Source: a virus (lineage: Duplodnaviria > Heunggongvirae > Uroviricota > Caudoviricetes). From it: a stretch of 42,656 nucleotides of DNA. The notes beneath the pieces are model-generated. The model did no database searches. It saw only the letters and a list, made by a program, of their open reading frames with translations, and was not told the origin of the DNA. The translations under genes were made by a program, and so were the position numbers. Shown here in pieces: positions 1 to 8,723 of the stretch (its first letter is position 1; every line of letters starts with the position of its first letter). The DNA is taken from the IMG/VR virus record IMGVR_UViG_2698536681_000004, one strand, 5' to 3'.

Positions 1-792
1 GCCAACACCTTTTCCGCGTTCCTTGACCGCCTTTCCGATACCGTCTCTGCACGCAATACCTCCGGATTCCGTGAACAGGTCGCTGCATGGCTGGAAAAAC
101 TCAGTGCCTCTGCGGAGCTTCGACAGCAGTCTTTCGCTGTTGCTGCTGATGCCACTGAGAGCTGTGAGGACCGTGTCGCGCTCACATGGAACAATCTCCG
201 GAAAACCCTCCTGGTCCATCAGGCATCAGAAGGCCTTTTCGATAATGATACCGGCGCTCTGCTCTCCCTGGGCAGGGAAATGTTCCGCCTCGAAATTCTG
301 GAGGACATTGCCCGGGATAAAGTCAGAACTCTCCATTTTGTGGATGAGATAGAAGTCTACCTGGCCTTCCAGACCATGCTCGCAGAGAAACTTCAGCTCT
401 CCACTGCCGTGAAGGAAATGCGTTTCTATGGCGTGTCGGGAGTGACAGCAAATGACCTCCGCACTGCCGAAGCCATGGTCAGAAGCCGTGAAGAGAATGA
501 ATTTACGGACTGGTTCTCCCTCTGGGGACCATGGCATGCTGTACTGAAGCGTACGGAAGCTGACCGCTGGGCGCTGGCAGAAGAGCAGAAATATGAGATG
601 CTGGAGAATGAGTACCCTCAGAGGGTGGCTGACCGGCTGAAAGCATCAGGTCTGAGCGGTGATGCGGATGCGGAGAGGGAAGCCGGTGCACAGGTGATGC
701 GTGAGACTGAACAGCAGATTTACCGTCAGCTGACTGACGAGGTACTGGCCCTGCGATTGTCTGAAAACGGCTCACAACTGCACCATTCATAA
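1..792 (+). CDS. ipaH: IpaH-family type III effector, C-terminal NEL E3 ubiquitin ligase domain (5' partial; gene starts upstream of window)
   Basis: Frame 1 is open from base 1 to the stop at 790-792; translation FLDRLSDTVSARNTSGFREQVAAWLEKL...ESCEDRVALTWNNL...LALRLSENGSQLHHS matches the conserved IpaH/SspH NEL domain including the catalytic Cys in the CEDR motif. Confidence 0.85.
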   Translation, partial: ANTFSAFLDRLSDTVSARNTSGFREQVAAWLEKLSASAELRQQSFAVAADATESCEDRVALTWNNLRKTLLVHQASEGLFDNDTGALLSLGREMFRLEILEDIARDKVRTLHFVDEIEVYLAFQTMLAEKLQLSTAVKEMRFYGVSGVTANDLRTAEAMVRSREENEFTDWFSLWGPWHAVLKRTEADRWALAEEQKYEMLENEYPQRVADRLKASGLSGDADAEREAGAQVMRETEQQIYRQLTDEVLALRLSENGSQLHHS

Positions 793-971: not shown

Positions 972-1535
972 TTACTCAACGTCAAACGCCCGAATTGAAG
1001 CCAAATCATCCAGACCGCTCAGCTCCTCTTTCATTTCACGCTGACGGCGATAAATCTCATCGTTGCGATCGACCTGCGCCTGCACCATTGCTGCCGCCAG
1101 TTCTTCCAGTTCCGGCATCGACAGTTTCACCTGCTGATTATCGGCATCGCTCCACGCCATATGTGTTTGTGCTGTGACAGATTTTGCCAGCATGACTACC
1201 GGGGACAGGCGGCCCAGTGAGTTGGGGCCAGCATTCCAGATACGACCGTTCCATTCAAACGTGAACGGCTTCGCCTCCTGTTCTGTGCGCCATGCTTCAA
1301 TTTCCTGACGTCTGGCCTCTCTGGCCGCTTCCAGCATTTCTGGTGTCACAGTGAATGGGGCTATCTCACCCCATTTGCCACTTTGCAGTTCCTGCCAGAT
1401 TCGCTGACCCGTCGGTGCGACATCATCAGCGGTGGCTGTGTAGGGGACTGCCTGGTCCCTGTCGTCAAAAAAAACGTCACAGTCTACTGCGCCACTTTCG
1501 GTATAACGGGGATTAATGATTTTTTTAATTTCCAC
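972..1535 (-). CDS. Putative tail fibre assembly/chaperone protein (lambdoid remnant)
   Basis: ORF immediately downstream of the side tail fibre gene on the same strand; GTG at 1535 preceded by GAGGAA; longest ORF extends to 1595 but would overlap the upstream gene by 50 nt; family call by position and composition only. Confidence 0.5.
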   Translation of the reverse strand: MEIKKIINPRYTESGAVDCDVFFDDRDQAVPYTATADDVAPTGQRIWQELQSGKWGEIAPFTVTPEMLEAAREARRQEIEAWRTEQEAKPFTFEWNGRIWNAGPNSLGRLSPVVMLAKSVTAQTHMAWSDADNQQVKLSMPELEELAAAMVQAQVDRNDEIYRRQREMKEELSGLDDLASIRAFDVE

Positions 1536-1545
1536 GGTGCATTCC

Positions 1546-2718
1546 TCACGATGTGCGAATAAAAAGCCCGGGCATTGCGCCAGAGACATGAGCATCCGGC
1601 ACCCCGGACAGGGCGCAATATGACCCCGGTAATGAATGCTCTGAACATCCCGTAATGAAAAATTGTGGGGATGCTATATACGTTCCGGTGGGAGTACTGG
1701 GCACTGAAATCCCCACCGGTCCCAGTCGTGAGCCTCTGTATGACTGCCCCCTGACAAGTCTGATGACTTTATCACCGTCAGCTTCTCCCTGGTACGCAGC
1801 AATAATCAGCCCGCCAATGTCAGGGTCTCCCCATCTGTTGCAGACAGAGCTCGCCACGATTCTGTAAATAATATCTTCTGTGGTTATATTTATTTTCACC
1901 CAGCCAGTCAGTCTGGATATGGGCCAGTAGCAGTAGCGGGTGTGATAAATGGGGCCGTTAATGCCGTAAAAAGTAAGGGATTTGGCTCTGTACCTCGGTT
2001 CTGTTGTCTCAGGGCGTGCATCAGTCCACCGGATGCTGAGCACCCCTTCAAACCGTGTGTCGGGTATGATGATGTCGTAGGGGCCAGCAACGGAATATTC
2101 ACCTGGCAGCGCATTCCTTACCCAGGCCAGGAAATCACTCTTAGTGTCAAAACGGATAACATCTTCAGGCAGAAAAGCACACCCAAAGCCGAATGCGCCG
2201 GGTATCGCCAGACGGCCTTTTGTCCGGTCGTAAATGTCGCTCTGTGCTTCCATCGTGGCCGCACTTTTCAGCCCCAGATTATCCCGGGACTTCTGTTGTG
2301 CCTTTTCGCCTGCTGCTGCGATTTCAGACAGATGGTTAGCCGTTTTCAGAGTGCCGGTCAGCGCAGCATCAATGTCATTTTTGGCCTGCTCTGCTGCGCG
2401 GGCATAACCTGCGGCTGCCGCCACATCCTGCGCCGTCTGCTGTGCGTTTCCGGCTGCGGCCCCGGCGCTCTGCTGCGCCTGCGCCACCATTTCCTCAAAG
2501 CGTTTGACGACATCCGGTTTCAGGTCGCCCTCATCAGGAGCAATCAGAAAGTCATTCAGCGTGCCGGGCTTTGAGTCGTCGTATACAGCAATGTCGCCAA
2601 CGTTGTACTCGTTGTGCCAGCCCGGTTTCAGATACACACCATATTTTCCAGTCCGCGCATGGAAACAGTATTCACCATCGTTTCCTGTCATCACATCAGC
2701 AACAGTGTGCATCACCAC
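1546..2718 (-). CDS. stf: Lambdoid side tail fibre protein Stf, probably 5'-truncated by the adjacent IS66 end
   Basis: N-terminal region contains the conserved Stf motif VYDDSKPGTLNDFL followed by Ala/Gln-rich repeats; aligns with lambda Stf from about residue 40 onward; IS66 terminal repeat begins 17 bp upstream. Confidence 0.7.
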   Translation of the reverse strand: MVMHTVADVMTGNDGEYCFHARTGKYGVYLKPGWHNEYNVGDIAVYDDSKPGTLNDFLIAPDEGDLKPDVVKRFEEMVAQAQQSAGAAAGNAQQTAQDVAAAAGYARAAEQAKNDIDAALTGTLKTANHLSEIAAAGEKAQQKSRDNLGLKSAATMEAQSDIYDRTKGRLAIPGAFGFGCAFLPEDVIRFDTKSDFLAWVRNALPGEYSVAGPYDIIIPDTRFEGVLSIRWTDARPETTEPRYRAKSLTFYGINGPIYHTRYCYWPISRLTGWVKINITTEDIIYRIVASSVCNRWGDPDIGGLIIAAYQGEADGDKVIRLVRGQSYRGSRLGPVGISVPSTPTGTYIASPQFFITGCSEHSLPGSYCALSGVPDAHVSGAMPGLFIRTS

Positions 2719-2734: not shown

Positions 2735-3300
2735 GTAAGCGTGCAGCAAGAACCGTATTGACGGGAATGTGTTATTCAGTCGGCAGTGCTACGCGCCAGG
2801 GGAGCAGTTCGCCGACCCGGTTTATCGGCCAGTCGGCTATGACGTCAAGGACATAGCGGAGGTAGCTTTCTGGCTCCACTCCGTTCAGTTTGCACGTCCC
2901 GATCAGGCTGTACAGCAGCGCTCCCCGCTCTCCTCCATGATCCGAACCGAAGAACAGGTAGTTTTTGCGGCCCAGACTGACCATCCGCAACGCATTTTCA
3001 GCGATGTTATTGTCCGCCTCAGCCCAGCCATCATCTGCATAGTACGTCAGCGCCGGCCACTGGTTCAGGGCATATGCGAACGCTTTCGCCAGTTCTGAGT
3101 GTCGCGACAGGGTTTTCATCTTTTCACGCAGCCAGCTTTCCAGGGATTTCAGCAGCGGTTTCGTTTTCAACTGACGTTCGGCAAGGCGCTGTTTCAGCAG
3201 GAAGATGTCGTCAGAAGAGATGTCGTTCATAAGCCCGTATTTTACCGGGCTTATTCTGTGACAACCAGGATAAAGAGATTTACAGCATGGTCAGGGAGGT
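2735..3300 (-). mobile_element. IS66-family element, 3' portion (terminal repeat starting GTAAGCG at 2735 plus tnpC C-terminal region)
   Basis: IS66-family inverted repeats typically begin 5'-GTAA; GTAAGCGTGCAGCAAG at 2735 lies just beyond the transposase C-terminus; upstream boundary with the prophage end is not resolved. Confidence 0.55.
2772..3230 (-). pseudogene. tnpC: IS66-family transposase TnpC (orf3), C-terminal fragment only
   Basis: Translation ...GRKNYLFFGSDHGGERGALLYSLIGTCKLNGVEPESYLRYVLDVIADWP...ELLPW matches the conserved C-terminal region of IS66 transposases; the N-terminal two thirds are absent and the frame closes at a stop at 3291-3293. Confidence 0.7.
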
Positions 3301-3448: not shown

Positions 3449-4186
3449 TCATTCACTCTCTTTCAAACCAGTTTTAACTGTTTGTGGTTTTGGGTAAGGC
3501 TGGACTTTGAATAGCTTTGTGTTAAGGCGTTTTCTGGCTCTCTTGTCCAGAAACCGGATGTAACGAAACTGACGGAATTTATGAACACTGGCTCTGTCGA
3601 TATTAGCCCGCAGATGTTCACCTCGCTGTCCTCCTCGTTTGATTGCATTCTTGCAAATCTCGTGATACCACTCGCCATCAAGTTCATAGAATGTTGTTTC
3701 ATGACTGCCTACATAATCAAAATTGCTTGCCTGGTACACGACACCAAGACAGCCACAACGCTCATCTGCAAACGACTGAACCCACTGCACCTGCGGATAA
3801 AGTTGTCTGATTAGTTTGAGCGCGTAACTGATTGCCCTTGATTCGGAGTTTCTCGGCATACAGTCATGCAGCCATAACCGGTTAAGCTCCATATATTCGC
3901 GGTTCTGCGTGCCAGTTACGACGCGTGCACCATTGTTTGGATTAAGGGCATAACCCCATTGCATTACGCCAACCAGCTCCCGTTCTGAAAATATGCCCAG
4001 ATGAAGGTAGGAATTATTTACGAAACGATGGCTGTAATGTTTATTGACGACGACCAGCCGGGCCAGCCAGCAACTTATTGTCTCAACCCGTAACTCACGG
4101 GAGCCATAACCGACGATATTGTCGTTATAGTGAATAAGTTCAGGCGTGCTGATGATACGGGATGTAACTTGCTTTCTGTTCCCCAC
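3449..4186 (-). CDS. mom: Mom-like DNA modification protein (start internal to the long ORF, approximate)
   Basis: ORF overlaps the 3' end of com exactly as mom does in Mu and is the last gene before the prophage end; the longest ORF (to 4381) would run through com so the true start is internal, candidate GTG at 4186; Mom family assigned by synteny. Confidence 0.55.
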
Positions 4187-4340
4187 GACAGGATTTCCTT
4201 GTGTATGTGGGGTGCTCTGTGGCGCTCTGAGATGTGATTTGATTGAGGGTTTTACAGCGCGGACATTTAACTTCCAGATAACTGAAGCTGGCTCGTGCCA
4301 GTAGCTTGTTACAATGTCGGCACCGTATGTTTCGATACAT
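4140..4340 (-). CDS. com: Com-like zinc-finger translational activator of mom
   Basis: ATG at 4340 preceded by AGGAGG; product [27 protein letters not shown] has the CxxC...CPRC zinc finger and strong similarity to Mu Com as recalled (IRCKNCNKLLFKA...IEIRCPRCK). Confidence 0.75.
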
Positions 4341-4383
4341 GGCCGCATAACCTCCTGCTTTGTTGTTGATATCTTTATCACTC

Positions 4384-4408
4384 AATCGATCGACAAAAAC
4401 GATCGATT
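4384..4408. promoter_or_regulatory. Perfect 9-bp inverted repeat with a GATC Dam site in each arm, upstream of com-mom
   Basis: AATCGATCG (4384-4392), 7-nt spacer ACAAAAA, CGATCGATT (4400-4408); GATC at 4388-4391 and 4401-4404, a third GATC at 4470-4473; sits about 45-70 bp upstream of the com ATG. Confidence 0.4.
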
Positions 4409-4596
4409 TGATTTATTTAATTGATACAACAAATAACACGAAATGTCATTAGCGAAAATTTATGAGTTTGATCACTAATTTTAAACGGTGCTGTAACGCA
4501 TAAGTGCTGAATGATTGTACATTTGAATACCGCAAAGCAAACAAATCAACTAATTTATAGAAGTCAATTGGTTAATTGCCAGCGTAAGAGGCTGCT

Positions 4597-4890
4597 ATGG
4601 ACAATCATGTAACGACGAGAAATCGAAAAATGATTGAAAATGCGGAAATCTATAATGATTATTTTTCCGATTATTCAGATGCCTGCAAATACAGTTCGAG
4701 TGCGGGAGAGTTCATATGCTTCAACTTTTTTATTAAATCTTATGTTTTTCCTCCACAGCAAGAAGATGGAGGTGTGCCACCTCCTGAAATCACTTTGCAC
4801 CGTATAGCCTCCGTCTCAATGATGGAGCAACAGGCTAATGAGCTGTATAGCATTCTGGGAACGATTCTACAAAAGCGTGAATCGGACTAA
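4597..4890 (+). CDS. Hypothetical protein, AT-rich ORF divergent from com-mom
   Basis: 97-codon ORF with AAGAGG 6 nt upstream of the ATG; AT-rich composition unlike the flanking phage genes; no family recognised. Confidence 0.4.
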   Translation: MDNHVTTRNRKMIENAEIYNDYFSDYSDACKYSSSAGEFICFNFFIKSYVFPPQQEDGGVPPPEITLHRIASVSMMEQQANELYSILGTILQKRESD

Positions 4891-5057
4891 TGATACCGGT
4901 TCATTTGCCTGCCCGGATGGGGAAGCAGGATTGACTGCTCCATAAGCAGCTATATTTCTGAATACGAAATACTATCCAGCGATTACATATGGCTGGATAG
5001 CGGCAAAGATGTTTTCATTAGTGTCAAACCGGCAGAGGACACCACCGGTTTGTATTG

Positions 5058-5312
5058 TTACATCATGGTACTGTCAGTTCCGGGCTGAGCCGGGTCTGGT
5101 TGCTCTGGCTGCGCGTCGGTTTTCGGCTCATTATCAGCATCACTGGCCGCAACTGCTGGCCCAATAAGTTTTGCCAGCACTTCATCAACGTAAGTGTCGA
5201 TTTGTGCCTCAAAATCCTTGCGGACCTGCGCTTTCAGCAACTTATTTACTTCACCGGAATACAGTGCCTGTTTTACCAGGTCTTCAGTGACGGTGCCTTT
5301 AATTTCTGGCAT
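5058..5312 (-). CDS. Hypothetical small acidic protein
   Basis: 84-codon ORF with AGGAGG 6 nt upstream of the ATG at 5312; no family recognised. Confidence 0.5.
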   Translation of the reverse strand: MPEIKGTVTEDLVKQALYSGEVNKLLKAQVRKDFEAQIDTYVDEVLAKLIGPAVAASDADNEPKTDAQPEQPDPAQPGTDSTMM

Positions 5313-5347
5313 GTATATCCTCCTTATGCGGGAATAAAGCCCTGCAA

Positions 5348-5530
5348 TCAGGGCTGGGTCGGGTCTTTTGGGAGCGGAGTTACCTGCGCTGTTTTACTGA
5401 GTTTTTCAGCTGCTGCGTCCTCAATTTTGCGGCGAACATAATTTCTGATGGCCTTATAACCACCACTCACCAGATATAACGCACATACTGCCGTGCAGAA
5501 ATACAATAAAATAAGCTGTAAAAATGTCAT
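5348..5530 (-). CDS. Hypothetical small membrane protein (single N-terminal transmembrane helix)
   Basis: ATG at 5530 preceded by GGGAGGG; product MTFLQLILLYFCTAVCALYLVSGG then a basic tail; no family recognised. Confidence 0.45.
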   Translation of the reverse strand: MTFLQLILLYFCTAVCALYLVSGGYKAIRNYVRRKIEDAAAEKLSKTAQVTPLPKDPTQP

Positions 5531-5579
5531 TATCCCTCCCAATTATTGACATGGTGTTGACACCGGTAATATCTGTTAG

Positions 5580-5667
5580 GTAAAAAGGTGCACTGCATTT
5601 TTTGCTTTGGATATAACGATCTTTTTGCCGCCGGTTTCTTGTTTTCCCTTACCGGCGGCATTTTTTT
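5580..5667 (+). ncRNA. Candidate small RNA (promoter-like hexamers plus strong intrinsic terminator, no ORF)
   Basis: TTGACA at 5546-5551 and 5557-5562, TAATAT at 5567-5572, then about 85 nt downstream a terminator; lies in the intergenic space between two minus-strand genes. Confidence 0.25.
5626..5667 (+). terminator. Rho-independent terminator, plus strand
   Basis: Perfect 10-bp stem TGCCGCCGGT (5626-5635) / ACCGGCGGCA (5651-5660), 15-nt loop, followed by TTTTTTT (5661-5667). Confidence 0.6.
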
Positions 5668-5674
5668 ATCCTGC

Positions 5675-7729
5675 TTACGCGTTATTCACTTCCACCACGA
5701 TACTGTCAATCAGTACCGGGTAAGTCGCATTTTTAGTGATATCGGTCACGCGCAACTTGTCTGCCGTAAACGTGCCGACCGGAGACTGCGACAGCATGAA
5801 TGGTGTCCCGTCCTTACCATCAATGACCGGCGTCACCTCAATACTGTTGTTACCGGCAAAACGGAAGCCCAGCGTATGCCATTCGTTATTAAATGCGCCG
5901 AATGACCCCAGCTTCGTGTTCTGCGCCGTGTTTCCTTTGTGATACATCACGTTAAGGTCTGTGGCATCGCTCTGTACGTAGAACGATGCCAGCAGGTTAT
6001 GACCGGCATTTCCTTCCAGAGTAACCCCTTGCGGCAGGGCAGAAACCGGCCAGTACAGCGCCAGTGCGTACTGATTAGCCGTAAGCGCGCCATCGAGTTT
6101 AAAACGACAACTGACAAGACCACCTTTACCCAGCAGGTCCGCACCATTACCAGCATCATGCTCAAGGTACCAGGGGGCTCTTCCTGTTTCCTTGGTCAGT
6201 TTCATTGCCTTACCCCCGCTGGCTCCGGCATCATCCACGATTTGAGCCTTGCCACCTCCGGCAGCCCAACCCTGTGGTGTCAACCGTCCTTCAGACTCAG
6301 ATGCCCGGTAAGCAAATAGCGTACTCATCGTCGTGGTGTCTGCGGGTGGCGTGGACGGTTTTGATGGTGTATCAGGTGACGGCTTCTCATCCGGTGGTGT
6401 CACGGTCTGCCCACGCATCAGTTCAGCCGTGCGCCCTGCATGGAGCATAATAGCTGAGGCCAGACGGTCTGAAATGACGCCCCTGCGTGCCCATGAGCTG
6501 AAATGGCTGTCACGCTGTGTCGAAACAAAACTGCCCTGGGTTCGGGATGCTGCACCGTAATACCCGACAGCCACAATATCCGGGTCTTCCGCCGGAGCAT
6601 TCGTTGGCGTGCTCTGTCCATTCTCATCCGTCAGGAACGGTACAAAGAAAATTTTCTGTGCTTCCTTGCCTTTGTAGCCACCGTATACTGCCTCATATTT
6701 ATCGGTGCCAGCGTTTTTCCAGTAATACGTGGTATCACCGCAAATCCACGGCACCGTGGTGGCATTTCCACTCACGCACTGCGCAGCAAGCGGAGCCAGG
6801 TCAGTTCTGAACTGCTGAACCATGGCCGTGAATAAACTATTATGCTGCTGGCTTCCTGAGGCAAGGTCTGCCTCTCCCTGCATCCAGACCACAGCCAGAA
6901 GTTTGTTTTTCGGGTTTTTCGCCAGCGCGACTTTGGTGCGGCTTACCAGGTCCTGATACAGAGGTTTACCGGCCCCCCAGCGTGAAGAATCAGCGGAAGC
7001 ACCGCTGGCCTCACTGAATGAGCCGTCGGCTCCAGTGGTGAATGCTGACCCGCCACGACAACAGGGCACCAGAAGTATCCCGGCATTCTGTGGGATATAG
7101 GGAAGCAGTTTTTTGGCAATATGCAACCCCTGACCGACAGTCCCGTACTGGCCTTTTGCCAGATCAGCTTTCGGGTGGTTTATCCCGCTCATATCCTGAA
7201 CATCATGCAGGCAGTGGTCTGCCGGAATGATGTCGTTGTATGTACACGACGTACCGTTGGGCGTTACCGTACTGCGGCGTGCCAGTTGCTTAATGCGTGG
7301 GTCCGGGCGGTCAAACGAATCCGGTAACGGCAGCCCCTCGCCGTAGGCCATGCCATTTGACTGACCCGCGAGAATGACAACAAAGTAATATTCCGGCTCT
7401 GAACTGCTGCCATTCGTGCTACCGGAAGGCCCGGCGTTATCCGGTGCATTCCAGTCGGAGGGCGTGAGCGTTCCGGCCACGTCAGATGTGATTGGAATGA
7501 TGCCAGTCACGCCTGAACTGGTGATTTCTGCACTGGGATTACCGGATACCGGCATTACCCATAATGGCTCTTTCGTGCTGAAGCGGATCACGCAGTCTGC
7601 GAAGGTGATCCCCCCTTTATTACCCGAAGGGCGGAAAGGGCTTTCAATAAATGCCACCGTGCCACCGGCAACCTTGACTGAAAACTCTCCGGGCATGGCG
7701 GAGAGCATTTTCCACTTGGAGTCTGACAT
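5675..7729 (-). CDS. NanS-p-like sialate O-acetylesterase family protein (SGNH/DUF303 esterase with C-terminal lectin-like domain)
   Basis: Catalytic-type motifs VVILAGQSNGMAYGEG and VVWMQGEADL typical of SASA/DUF303 esterases; 684 aa, comparable to prophage NanS-p esterases. Confidence 0.65.
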   Translation of the reverse strand: MSDSKWKMLSAMPGEFSVKVAGGTVAFIESPFRPSGNKGGITFADCVIRFSTKEPLWVMPVSGNPSAEITSSGVTGIIPITSDVAGTLTPSDWNAPDNAGPSGSTNGSSSEPEYYFVVILAGQSNGMAYGEGLPLPDSFDRPDPRIKQLARRSTVTPNGTSCTYNDIIPADHCLHDVQDMSGINHPKADLAKGQYGTVGQGLHIAKKLLPYIPQNAGILLVPCCRGGSAFTTGADGSFSEASGASADSSRWGAGKPLYQDLVSRTKVALAKNPKNKLLAVVWMQGEADLASGSQQHNSLFTAMVQQFRTDLAPLAAQCVSGNATTVPWICGDTTYYWKNAGTDKYEAVYGGYKGKEAQKIFFVPFLTDENGQSTPTNAPAEDPDIVAVGYYGAASRTQGSFVSTQRDSHFSSWARRGVISDRLASAIMLHAGRTAELMRGQTVTPPDEKPSPDTPSKPSTPPADTTTMSTLFAYRASESEGRLTPQGWAAGGGKAQIVDDAGASGGKAMKLTKETGRAPWYLEHDAGNGADLLGKGGLVSCRFKLDGALTANQYALALYWPVSALPQGVTLEGNAGHNLLASFYVQSDATDLNVMYHKGNTAQNTKLGSFGAFNNEWHTLGFRFAGNNSIEVTPVIDGKDGTPFMLSQSPVGTFTADKLRVTDITKNATYPVLIDSIVVEVNNA

Positions 7730-7800
7730 CGTCTTTTCTGCCTGTTTCTGAATTAAACAGAGTCAGAATAGCGACCGCTGAAAAATATGTGTTTTGCGGA

Positions 7801-7834
7801 AATTCAAAAAAGCGTCACGGTACTTTTGGTGACG
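7801..7834 (-). terminator. Intrinsic terminator overlapping the invertase stop codon
   Basis: Stem CGTCAC (7813-7818) / GTGACG (7829-7834) with a 10-nt loop; on the minus strand followed by CTTTTTTGAATT. Confidence 0.5.
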
Positions 7835-8391
7835 GAGCTGGTGAGGCAGGAAAATAACGATAAAGGGTGGAAAGGCCAATATCAAATATCAGTGCGATTT
7901 GTTTACGGGACTCGCCATTAGCCAGCAAACGGGCGATTTGCTCCCGCTCTTTCTCTGTCAGTTTCTGAGGTCTGCCGCCATGACGCCCCTGAGCACGGGC
8001 AGCAGCAAGACCCGCGCGTGTACGTTCAATAATGAGTTCCCGCTCCATTTCCGCCAGCGCGCCCATTATATGGAAAAAGAAACGTCCCATGGGAGTGGAT
8101 GTATCAATATTGTCCGTAATGCTGCGGAAGTTAACGCCGCGTTGCCGGAGTTCTTCTGTTAAAAGGACAAGGTGCTGCATACTGCGTCCAAGGCGATCCA
8201 GTTTCCAGACCAGCAGGGTATCCCCTGGCCGGAGTCGCTTTAATGCGCGTTTAAGTCCGGGACGCTCCCTTGTCTTACCGCTTATTCTGTCTTCGAAAAA
8301 CAGCTCACATCCTGCACATTCCAGCGCATTTCTTTGTAGCGCCGTATTCTGGTCATTTGTTGACACCCTGATATACCCAATNNNNNNNNNN
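7815..8391 (-). CDS. gin: Serine recombinase, DNA invertase of the Gin/Pin/Hin family (first codons lost in the assembly gap)
   Basis: Translation IGYIRVSTNDQNTALQRNALECAGCELFFEDRISGKTRERPGLKRALKRL...GRFFFHIMGALAEMERELIIERT is near-identical in pattern to Gin/Pin; reading frame runs into the N-run at 8392. Confidence 0.9.
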
Positions 8392-8723
8392 NNNNNNNNN
8401 NNNNNNNNNNNNNNNNNNNNNNNNNNNNNNNNNNNNNNNNNNNNNNNNNNNNNNNNNNNNNNNNNNNNNNNNNNNNNNNNNNNNNNNNNNNNNNNNNNNN
8501 NNNNNNNNNNNNNNNNNNNNNNNNNNNNNNNNNNNNNNNNNNNNNNNNNNNNNNNNNNNNNNNNNNNNNNNNNNNNNNNNNNNNNNNNNNNNNNNNNNNN
8601 NNNNNNNNNNNNNNNNNNNNNNNNNNNNNNNNNNNNNNNNNNNNNNNNNNNNNNNNNNNNNNNNNNNNNNNNNNNNNNNNNNNNNNNNNNNNNNNNNNNN
8701 NNNNNNNNNNNNNNNNNNNNNNN
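8392..8723. other. Assembly gap (332 N)
   Basis: Uninterrupted run of n characters. Confidence 1.

What the first reader, a model, noticed from the sequence alone, without database searches (positions are those of the whole stretch)
4409..5674. Uncharacterised small-gene cargo between com-mom and the esterase
An AT-rich divergent ORF (4597-4890), a small acidic protein (5058-5312) and a small membrane protein (5348-5530) all have good ribosome-binding sites but no recognisable family. In Mu this interval holds no genes, so the block is acquired accessory cargo of unknown function.
Basis: inference. Interest (0 to 1): 0.55.

Follow-up and report, generated by a model that had tools for sequence, protein, structure and literature searches.

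The report
Esterase-module tail genes, sRNA, moron slot
The "unknown small genes" are mostly the tail end of a well-travelled prophage cassette (sialate esterase, an unannotated antisense small RNA, and two small DUF proteins) that Shiga-toxin-type lambdoid phages also carry, here sitting in a Mu-like prophage next to a swap-site holding one small gene of an unnamed enterobacterial family.

Summary
The three ORFs exist at the stated coordinates, have good Shine-Dalgarno sites and evolve under purifying selection. The claim of "no recognisable family" is wrong. ORF 5058-5312(-) is Pfam DUF826 and ORF 5348-5530(-) is Pfam DUF1378. With the upstream SASA/DUF6645 esterase they form the fixed triplet found ahead of the holin in lambdoid and Stx prophages. 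In 80 IMG/VR loci, DUF826 always follows DUF1378. An esterase precedes it in all 78 loci where the contig reaches far enough.

It has a conserved promoter (TTGACA-18-TAAAAA) and a GC hairpin followed by U7. It matches EcOnc33, an Hfq-bound ~71-nt sRNA of E. coli O157 Sakai prophage Sp6, at 68 of 82 aligned positions, and sits where PasA/PasC do.

ORF 4597-4890(+) lies in a ~570-bp AT-rich slot that carries four alternative cassettes among related Mu-like prophages. It belongs to an unannotated ~100-aa family at the tail-fibre ends of enterobacterial prophages. Positions 4341-4449 are the com-mom operator shared with Mu.

This is acquired cargo, but largely of a known kind. The protein functions remain unknown.

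The parts
4341..4449 (-). com-mom regulatory region. It includes the GATC-containing palindrome AATCGATCG-N7-CGATCGATT at 4384-4408. It is not cargo.
   Evidence: It aligns with Mu's gin-com spacer, with the GATC palindrome invariant. It is the only part of the DUF826-com interval shared by all four slot types of Mu-like prophages. Similarity to other Mu-like phages stops at 4435-4449.
4450..5023 (.). Variable 'swap' slot, cassette type A. It is AT-rich at 39.5% GC.
   Evidence: 28 Mu-like loci fall into 4 unrelated cassette types between conserved ends. This type occurs in 19 of 5,426 complete E. coli genomes.
4597..4890 (+). ORF97, acidic (pI 4.7), with no TM segment. RefSeq starts it at 4630, giving 86 aa. 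It belongs to an unannotated ~98-107 aa enterobacterial prophage-end family.
   Evidence: dN/dS is 0.33 in frame. Single-sequence searches find only E. coli and Shigella. The profile search finds Klebsiella, Raoultella, Lelliottia, Enterobacter, Citrobacter and Salmonella members, aligned in A7. There is no Pfam, PHROG, PADLOC, NCBIfam or PDB match. Family members carry 16-18 residues before the IEN motif, which favours the 4597 start.
4888..5057 (.). Hairpin-rich spacer between convergent ORF97 and DUF826. It has a terminator-like site at 4935-4949 (+) and a hairpin at about 5026-5048.
   Evidence: Fold z-scores are -3.7 (+ strand) and -4.9 (- strand). The terminator scan is. The last 34 nt are shared with slot type D.
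5058..5312 (-). DUF826 protein, 84 aa. It has a short helix, a long helix at residues 20-50, and a disordered acidic Pro-rich tail ending in Met-Met.
   Evidence: Pfam PF05696, E 6.4e-16. PHROG 311. AF2 with 25 sequences gives pLDDT 85-97 over residues 11-50. The family comprises 217 clusters; every source name among the 120 listed is E. coli or Shigella. dN/dS is 0.09-0.17.
5348..5530 (-). DUF1378 protein, 60 aa. It is a single-pass membrane protein with a basic C-terminal tail, so N-out/C-in is inferred from the positive-inside rule.
   Evidence: Pfam PF07125, E 1.2e-31. PHROG 494. Alignment A2 has 23 invariant positions. dN/dS is 0.14-0.30.
5557..5586 (+). Promoter of the antisense sRNA: -35 TTGACA at 5557-5562, an 18-nt spacer, and a -10-like TAAAAA at 5581-5586.
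   Evidence: TTGAC[ATG]-17/18-TA[AG]AAA is present on this strand in 36 of 38 distinct esterase-DUF1378 spacers, even though the sRNA bodies are otherwise unalignable.
5590..5667 (+). EcOnc33-type (Pas-like) small RNA, about 75 nt. The terminator stem is 5626-5635/5651-5660 with U7 at 5661-5667. It ends 8 nt from the esterase stop codon and is antisense to the esterase-DUF1378 spacer.
   Evidence: It matches the Sakai Sp6 copy at 68 of 82 aligned positions and 26 of 27 at the 5' end. The published EcOnc33 Northern probe maps to the homologous spacer. The fold is -23 kcal/mol, z -4.6. Stem arms differ compensatorily between module types. It has the same position and orientation as PasA/PasC. 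RefSeq does not annotate it.
5675..7729 (-). SASA + DUF6645 carbohydrate esterase of NanS-p type. It is the head of the same module. Its first ~110 aa are specific to the Mu-like lineage.
   Evidence: Pfam results are. Nucleotide homology to lambdoid modules starts at 7399. It precedes DUF1378 in 78 of 78 loci.

Best explanation
The interval is a composite.

(a) Positions 5058-7729 are one portable late-region module. It consists of a NanS-p-type sialate O-acetylesterase, a convergent Hfq-type sRNA, DUF1378 and DUF826. The module is shared, partly at 76-87% nucleotide identity, with the moron site of lambdoid and Stx prophages. In one lineage of Mu-like prophages it sits between gin and com-mom.

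Shown: the module's composition, order and exchange between the two phage types.

Inferred: in the lysogen, the sRNA is made from its own sigma-70 promoter. It acts in trans through its 5' single-stranded region with Hfq, as its O157 homologue EcOnc33 does in Hfq-CRAC and RNase E-CLASH data. It is also fully complementary to the esterase-DUF1378 spacer of the late mRNA, so it could trigger processing there.

Inferred: DUF1378 (a membrane anchor with a basic cytoplasmic tail) and DUF826 (a cytoplasmic long-helix protein with an acidic tail) are an obligate pair co-transcribed with the esterase. They serve the esterase module, or the host envelope during late growth, rather than the lambdoid holin.

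(b) Positions 4450-5023 are an exchangeable moron slot. Here it holds ORF97, a member of an unnamed family found at the tail-fibre ends of enterobacterial prophages. It is most likely a lysogen-expressed accessory gene.

(c) Positions 4341-4449 are the Mu-type Dam/GATC operator of com-mom.
For: Module composition. The same gene order, esterase-DUF1378-DUF826-holin, occurs in O157 prophages, VT2-Sakai and PhiR12_4. Among 80 IMG/VR loci with DUF1378, DUF826 follows in 80 of 80. An esterase precedes in 78 of 78 where the contig allows. 29 are Mu-like (gin upstream, and com with mom or dcm downstream where the contig reaches) and 49 are lambdoid (Q...holin/lysozyme); L063 and L076 combine both. 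Counts of GenBank phage records are esterase 349, DUF1378 309 and DUF826 307+2, with the same host breakdown.

Exchange between phage types. Nucleotide homology spans 5397-7399. Recombinants L063 and L076 have junctions inside DUF1378.

sRNA. EcOnc33 gave a ~71-nt Northern band and Hfq cross-links (PMC4104026 supplement) and mRNA hybrids through its 5' end (PMC5286369 supplement). PasA and PasC occupy the same site and strand (PMC8550237 Table S6; bioRxiv 10.64898/2026.05.13.724894).

Slot.

Operator..
Against: There are no expression data for this prophage. The -10 element lacks the usual final T. Rfam has no model for this sRNA, and the only hit (Esr41, 22 bits, gathering score 102) is noise.

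Esterases occur without the DUF pair: E2348/69 PP2 and PP5, about 40 phage records and Salmonella L096. The pair is therefore not needed for esterase function. Constant linkage could simply reflect one recombination block.

No ORF97 promoter was resolved. The only consensus-like sites (4576, 4634) overlap or follow the 4597 start. The ORF97 structure model is unusable (pLDDT 55).
Confidence: 0.7

Rival explanations
1. DUF1378 and DUF826 are lysis-timing modulators, acting like antiholins or the RI/RIII pair on the class II holin that follows them in lambdoid phages. In the Mu-like prophage they are passengers carried along with the esterase.
For: They lie immediately upstream of the holin in every lambdoid locus whose contig reaches the holin position. 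A small membrane protein plus a small soluble helical protein is the same make-up as T4 RI/RIII (my own knowledge, not tested).
Against: In Mu-like prophages there is no adjacent holin, yet both genes remain intact under purifying selection, with dN/dS 0.09-0.30 across diverged Mu-like alleles (29 loci). No sequence relation to any holin or antiholin family was seen in Pfam, PHROG or PDB.
Confidence: 0.2
2. The + strand element at 5557-5667 is only a terminator or insulator. It would stop antisense transcription from entering the esterase gene, and it is not a functional sRNA in this prophage.
For: The hairpin plus U7 is the most conserved part. There is no expression evidence for this particular copy. 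The -10 element is non-canonical.
Against: A promoter motif at fixed spacing is kept in 36 of 38 variants whose transcribed bodies differ. The near-identical O157 copy gives a discrete ~71-nt Hfq-bound RNA with mRNA hybrids. The 5' 27 nt differ by one base.
Confidence: 0.15
3. One reading: one acquired block of three novel, family-less genes, for example a defence or toxin system.
For: The block is absent from Mu. It is AT-rich. The functions are unknown.
Against: Two genes are Pfam families tied to the lambdoid esterase module. ORF97 swaps independently of them. There are no PADLOC matches beyond noise. The three genes lie on two strands in two separately inherited units.
Confidence: 0.05
4. 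ORF97 is a chance ORF in AT-rich spacer DNA that serves mom regulation.
For: The region is AT-rich. No promoter was found. RefSeq and other callers disagree on the start.
Against: The frame stays open at 87% nucleotide identity, with in-frame dN/dS of 0.33 against 0.58-1.33 in other frames. Collinear homologues at 24-57% identity occur in six other genera. The mom operator homology ends at 4449.
Confidence: 0.07

Closest known systems
NanS-p region of lambdoid and Stx prophages (933W/VT2-Sakai orf42-orf43-S; Sakai Sp6 ECs_1527-1529)
   Same: The gene order and orientation are the same: SASA esterase, then DUF1378, then DUF826. The same antisense sRNA site is present. Nucleotide identity is 76-87% from esterase codon ~110 to the middle of DUF1378.
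   Different: The host phage is Mu-like. The module lies between gin and com-mom, not between Q/stx and the holin. The esterase N-terminus (~110 aa) is different and gives no DUF1737 hit. DUF826 is only ~40% identical to the lambdoid alleles.
EcOnc33 (Tree et al. 2014, PMC4104026) and PasA/PasC (Pearl Mizrahi et al. 2021, PMC8550237; Zhu et al. 2026 preprint)
   Same: It is convergent with the esterase and its terminator abuts the esterase stop codon. It has the TTGACA promoter and is about 75-85 nt long. The 5' 27 nt match EcOnc33 at 26 of 27 positions.
   Different: Expression and Hfq binding have not been shown for this copy. The loop and the spacer before the stem differ. PasA and PasC share only the architecture and promoter region, not the body. 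No Rfam family exists for it.
Phage morons (Juhala/Hendrix sense) and prophage-end accessory slots
   Same: ORF97 sits in an AT-rich, independently exchanged cassette with terminator-like hairpins. It is absent from Mu and lies beside other accessory genes. Its relatives lie at prophage ends beside retron-type RT, UmuDC and invertase cargo.
   Different: No promoter has been demonstrated. No phenotype is known. Here the gene lacks the 81-aa and 128-aa companions seen in Klebsiella, Enterobacter and Raoultella.
Phage Mu com-mom control region
   Same: The GATC palindrome and flanking bases upstream of com are conserved with Mu.
   Different: Upstream of it Mu has gin after 94 bp, whereas here 3.4 kb of cargo intervenes.

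Membership tests
Pfam DUF826 (PF05696) | Score above the curated gathering threshold | tested here: met
   58.7 bits against a cut-off of 25, E 6.4e-16, profile positions 1-58 of 75
Pfam DUF1378 (PF07125) | Score above the curated gathering threshold | tested here: met
   109.1 bits against a cut-off of 25, E 1.2e-31, profile positions 1-58 of 59
EcOnc33 / Pas-type prophage sRNA | Encoded convergent to, and immediately 3' of, the prophage SASA esterase gene | tested here: met
   U7 ends at 5667 and the esterase stop is at 5675-5677, on opposite strands. EcOnc33 and PasA/PasC have the same layout.
EcOnc33 / Pas-type prophage sRNA | Sequence similarity to the published RNA | tested here: met
   68 of 82 aligned positions and 26 of 27 at the 5' end match the Sakai Sp6 locus that carries the EcOnc33 probe. 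Similarity to PasA and PasC is limited to the promoter and terminator architecture.
EcOnc33 / Pas-type prophage sRNA | Own promoter and Rho-independent terminator with a U tract | tested here: met
   TTGACA-18-TAAAAA. A 10-bp GC stem plus U7, -23 kcal/mol, z -4.6.
EcOnc33 / Pas-type prophage sRNA | Expressed, Hfq-bound, and base-pairs with targets | not testable with these tools
   Shown only for the O157 homologue (PMC4104026 and PMC5286369 supplements).
Rfam Esr41 (RF02676) | Covariance-model score at or above the gathering score | tested here: not met
   22.2 bits against 102, E 0.23. Esr41 lies in SpLE1, not at this site.
NanS-p prophage sialate O-acetylesterase (context gene 5675-7729) | SASA/SGNH catalytic domain plus C-terminal DUF6645 jelly-roll domain | tested here: met
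   PF03629 at 51.3 bits and PF20350 at 226.5 bits.
NanS-p prophage sialate O-acetylesterase (context gene 5675-7729) | N-terminal DUF1737 capsid-binding domain, as in phi24B gp84 | tested here: not met
   No Pfam hit on residues 1-116. Nucleotide homology to lambdoid esterases starts after codon ~110.
Moron | Extra DNA absent from related phages, with deviant base composition | tested here: met
   The Mu gap is 94 bp. The slot is 39.5% GC and the window 53.4%. There are four alternative cassettes.
Moron | Own promoter and terminator flanking the ORF | tested here: inconclusive
   Terminator-like hairpins lie downstream. No convincing promoter lies upstream of 4597.
Known anti-phage defence systems (PADLOC-DB 2.0) | Significant match of any of the three proteins to a defence-protein model | tested here: not met
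   The only hit is PbeC at E 0.0076, 12.9 bits, on a coiled stretch.

The most novel reading that the evidence does not exclude
The DUF826|com junction of this Mu-like lineage may be a dedicated exchange site for small lysogen-expressed genes placed next to the anti-restriction gene mom. The ORF97 family is unannotated, found in at least seven enterobacterial genera, and lies at or near the tail-fibre end of prophages, outermost beside the host junction in most contexts examined. It may be a new kind of superinfection-exclusion, defence or anti-defence protein. Separately, the DUF1378/DUF826 pair could be a membrane-tethered factor that controls release or placement of the phage esterase.
Probability: 0.2. 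Interest if true: 0.6.

Novelty: new member of a known kind. Interest (0 to 1): 0.33.

Why it matters
Three points make this worth recording.

First, a virulence-associated module known from Shiga-toxin-type lambdoid prophages, together with its Hfq sRNA, also travels in transposable Mu-like prophages. It recombines with lambdoid copies in the same chromosome. That is one route for spreading accessory sRNAs and for prophage-mediated inversions.

Second, the sRNA copy is not annotated in RefSeq, so regulators of this type are under-counted.

Third, the work defines two tractable unknowns. One is an obligate DUF1378/DUF826 pair, found with an esterase wherever it could be checked. The other is a widespread but unnamed ~100-aa prophage-end family.

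None of this overturns current views. It mainly reclassifies "novel cargo" as known-kind cargo in a new host phage.

Tried and rejected
- **Rfam, E-value mode.** It gave only a sub-threshold Esr41 hit at the sRNA site and an IS102 hit at com. Both were rejected. The Esr41 hit served only as a pointer to the terminator.
- **ORF97 single-sequence searches.** The 5.8-billion word-indexed search and exhaustive phmmer against 1.84 billion representatives found only its own E. coli/Shigella clade. "ORFan" looked right until tblastn against phages gave a 29%-identity hit and a profile search widened the family.
- **Genome-contig scan with ORF97.** One spurious 23-residue hit.
- **Plasmids.** Nothing.
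- **AF2 of ORF97 without an alignment.** pLDDT 55, so no fold search was run.
- **DUF826 model.** It is essentially one long helix, which is too simple for a meaningful fold search.
- **PDB sequence and profile searches for all three families.** Nothing.
- **PADLOC, PHROG function and NCBIfam.** No function assigned.
- **Apparent DUF1378-DUF826 fusion proteins P0057 and P0114.** These are read-throughs into the alternative frame on single contigs. They were rejected as Rosetta-stone evidence.
- **The 139-aa 'orf43' of VT2-Sakai.** It is an over-extended call of DUF826 that overlaps DUF1378 out of frame.
- **Companion genes of ORF97 relatives (81, 126 and 128 aa).** They have no trace in the window.
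Full report
**Setting.** The window carries a Mu-like prophage on the minus strand. The gene order is gin (7815-8366), a 684-aa SASA+DUF6645 esterase (5675-7729), two small ORFs (5348-5530 and 5058-5312), a divergent ORF (4597-4890, + strand), com (4140-4340) and mom (3449-4156). In phage Mu, gin and com are 94 bp apart with nothing between them.

**Checking the observation.** Each has a readable Shine-Dalgarno site. The 84-aa product is acidic (pI 4.2). The 60-aa product has one strong N-terminal hydrophobic span. Comparison with diverged alleles in other E. coli prophages shows purifying selection on all three. dN/dS is 0.33 for ORF97 in its own frame, against 0.58-1.33 in the other five frames. 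It is 0.09-0.17 for the 84-aa gene and 0.14-0.30 for the 60-aa gene. The genes are real.

The statement that none has a recognisable family is wrong. The 84-aa protein is Pfam DUF826 (58.7 bits, cut-off 25). The 60-aa protein is DUF1378 (109.1 bits, cut-off 25). RefSeq annotates identical copies that way in at least 14 complete E. coli genomes.

**The DUF pair belongs to the esterase module.** In O157 lambdoid prophages the order is Q ... SASA esterase - DUF1378 - DUF826 - holin - lysozyme. The same order holds in VT2-Sakai and PhiR12_4 once over-extended ORF calls are corrected. I fetched 80 IMG/VR loci encoding DUF1378. DUF826 follows in 80 of 80. An esterase precedes in 78 of 78 loci whose contig reaches far enough. 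29 are Mu-like (gin upstream, and com with mom or a Dcm-type methylase downstream where the contig reaches) and 49 are lambdoid; the other two (L063, L076) combine both contexts.

In GenBank phage records, the esterase is found in 349 records, DUF1378 in 309 and DUF826 in 307+2, with matching host breakdowns. The two small proteins are thus an obligate pair, found with an esterase wherever the contig allowed the check. About 40 phages, and E2348/69 prophages PP2 and PP5, have the esterase without them.

At the DNA level, window 5397-7399 is 76-87% identical to lambdoid modules. The homology starts after esterase codon ~110. That N-terminus is specific to the Mu-like lineage and gives no DUF1737 hit. 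The homology ends inside DUF1378. Two IMG/VR contigs (L063, L076) are Mu-like/lambdoid recombinants with junctions inside DUF1378.

No function is published for either family. The only full-text mention in this context simply notes them between nanS-p and S. DUF826 is predicted as a short helix plus a confident long helix (residues 20-50), followed by a disordered acidic tail ending in a conserved Met-Met. There are no PDB relatives.

A weak Rfam hit (Esr41, 22 bits, far below threshold) drew attention to the + strand at 5587-5669. Reading the spacer shows TTGACA (5557-5562), 18 nt, TAAAAA (5581-5586), about 35 nt of unstructured RNA, a 10-bp GC stem and U7 ending 8 nt from the esterase stop codon. 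The fold is -23 kcal/mol, z -4.6.

The homologous spacer of Sakai prophage Sp6 contains, exactly, the Northern probe for EcOnc33. EcOnc33 is an Hfq-cross-linked sRNA seen as a ~71-nt band (PMC4104026 supplement). It forms mRNA hybrids through its 5' end in RNase E-CLASH (PMC5286369 supplement). The window copy matches it at 68 of 82 aligned positions and at 26 of the first 27.

PasA and PasC of EPEC E2348/69 occupy the same position and strand relative to their esterases. They share the promoter and terminator architecture. A 2026 preprint describes the "esterase-PasA-holin" arrangement.

Across 38 distinct spacers, 36 keep the promoter motif at fixed spacing. The transcribed bodies fall into unalignable types. 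The terminator arms change in a compensatory way: GCCGCCGG/CCGGCGGC, CCCGCC/GGCGGG, CCGCCAGC/GCTGGCGG and CACCGGCAG/CTGCCGGTG. RefSeq annotates nothing here. Expression of this particular copy is inferred, not shown.

**The divergent ORF sits in a swap slot.** Among 28 Mu-like loci, the DNA between DUF826 and com falls into four unrelated cassette types. They share only the 109 nt upstream of com (window 4341-4449) and, in one comparison, 34 nt after DUF826 (RefSeq contexts). The shared 109 nt aligns with Mu's mom control region, including the GATC palindrome.

The window's cassette (about 4450-5023, 39.5% GC) holds ORF97, followed by a hairpin-dense spacer (z -3.7 and -4.9). Single-sequence searches suggested an orphan. 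A 29%-identity tblastn hit in phage vB_EcoS-733R5 seeded a profile search that changed this. The search recovered a collinear ~98-107-aa family in Klebsiella (at least 633 contigs), Raoultella, Lelliottia, Enterobacter, Citrobacter, E. coli and Salmonella (57% identity).

The family is absent from Pfam, PHROGs, PADLOC, NCBIfam and the PDB. Its members lie at the tail-fibre end of prophages. In most contexts examined they are the outermost gene, next to the host junction, usually followed by 81-aa and 128-aa ORFs. Beyond that comes variable cargo such as retron-type reverse transcriptase, UmuDC or Pin invertase. In Salmonella the homologue is again convergent with a SASA+DUF6645 esterase. Its function is unknown. 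The AF2 model is too poor to use.

**Interpretation.** The interval is acquired cargo, but most of it is a known-kind module in a new host phage, plus one exchangeable moron and a piece of core Mu regulation.

The best-supported active element in a lysogen is the sRNA. I put about 0.65 on it being expressed and acting as a trans-acting Hfq sRNA.

For DUF1378/DUF826, I favour a role tied to the esterase module or the envelope during late growth, at about 0.3. My reason is that the pair stays intact under selection in Mu-like prophages with no neighbouring holin. A holin-modulating role (about 0.2) is the main rival. Simple linkage cannot be excluded.

For ORF97, I favour a lysogen-expressed accessory function typical of prophage-end morons. 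Defence or anti-defence is a guess.

**Verdict.** Novelty is a new member of a known kind. Interest is modest.

Noticed in passing
window 280-792 (+), 2772-3230 (-), 972-2718 (-): Beyond the mom end of the prophage lie three remnants. One is the C-terminal NEL E3-ligase domain of an IpaH-type effector. Another is an IS66 transposase fragment. The third is a tail-fibre N-terminal gene with a DUF4376 gene. This suggests a Shigella or EIEC-like chromosome with another prophage remnant.
   Followed up: partly
window ~8380-8720: There is a run of N (masked or gap) between gin and the tail-fibre assembly gene, where Mu has its invertible G segment.
   Followed up: no
L063 and L076 (IMG/VR contigs); junction corresponds to window ~5363-5472: These contigs join the Mu-like gin-esterase (96% identity to the window) to a lambdoid DUF1378-DUF826-holin-lysozyme. 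L076 also carries the inverted mom-com-ORF97-DUF826 end. This is consistent with recombination or inversion between a Mu-like and a lambdoid prophage across the shared module. Assembly chimeras were not excluded.
   Followed up: partly
L003 (LC727881, Mu-like phage inserted in an Stx2c phage) 7210-8262: In this relative, com is followed by a 350-aa C5 cytosine methyltransferase (PF00145) instead of mom. The modification gene under Com control is therefore itself exchangeable.
   Followed up: partly
window 7400-7729 (-), esterase residues 1-110: The esterase N-terminus is specific to the Mu-like lineage. It replaces the DUF1737 domain that a 2026 preprint shows to be the capsid-binding part of phi24B gp84. 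It might adapt the enzyme to a Mu-type virion.
   Followed up: no
L008 (E2348/69 PP2) 2450-2760: The esterase-holin spacer holds two tandem promoter-terminator units of the Pas type. PasA is the distal one. The proximal one abuts the esterase stop codon as PasC does in PP5.
   Followed up: no
L098-L103, L106-L109 (Klebsiella, Enterobacter, Raoultella prophage ends): A conserved three-gene cluster (ORF97-family 98-107 aa, then 81 aa, then 128 aa) lies right at the prophage-host junction. It is followed by variable cargo including a retron-type reverse transcriptase. None of the three has a family in Pfam or PADLOC.
   Followed up: partly
window 4140-4385 / L001 5842-6041: The com reading frame is open in the window. 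RefSeq flags com as frameshifted in JE86-ST05, whose sequence is identical to the window over 4300-5800. The difference must lie below 4300 or in the annotation.
   Followed up: no
L002 3756-3922 (+): A strong STnc100 (PasD-like) sRNA match lies just upstream of the lambdoid esterase (101.6 bits). No counterpart exists upstream of the window's esterase, where the gin-esterase gap is only 85 nt.
   Followed up: partly
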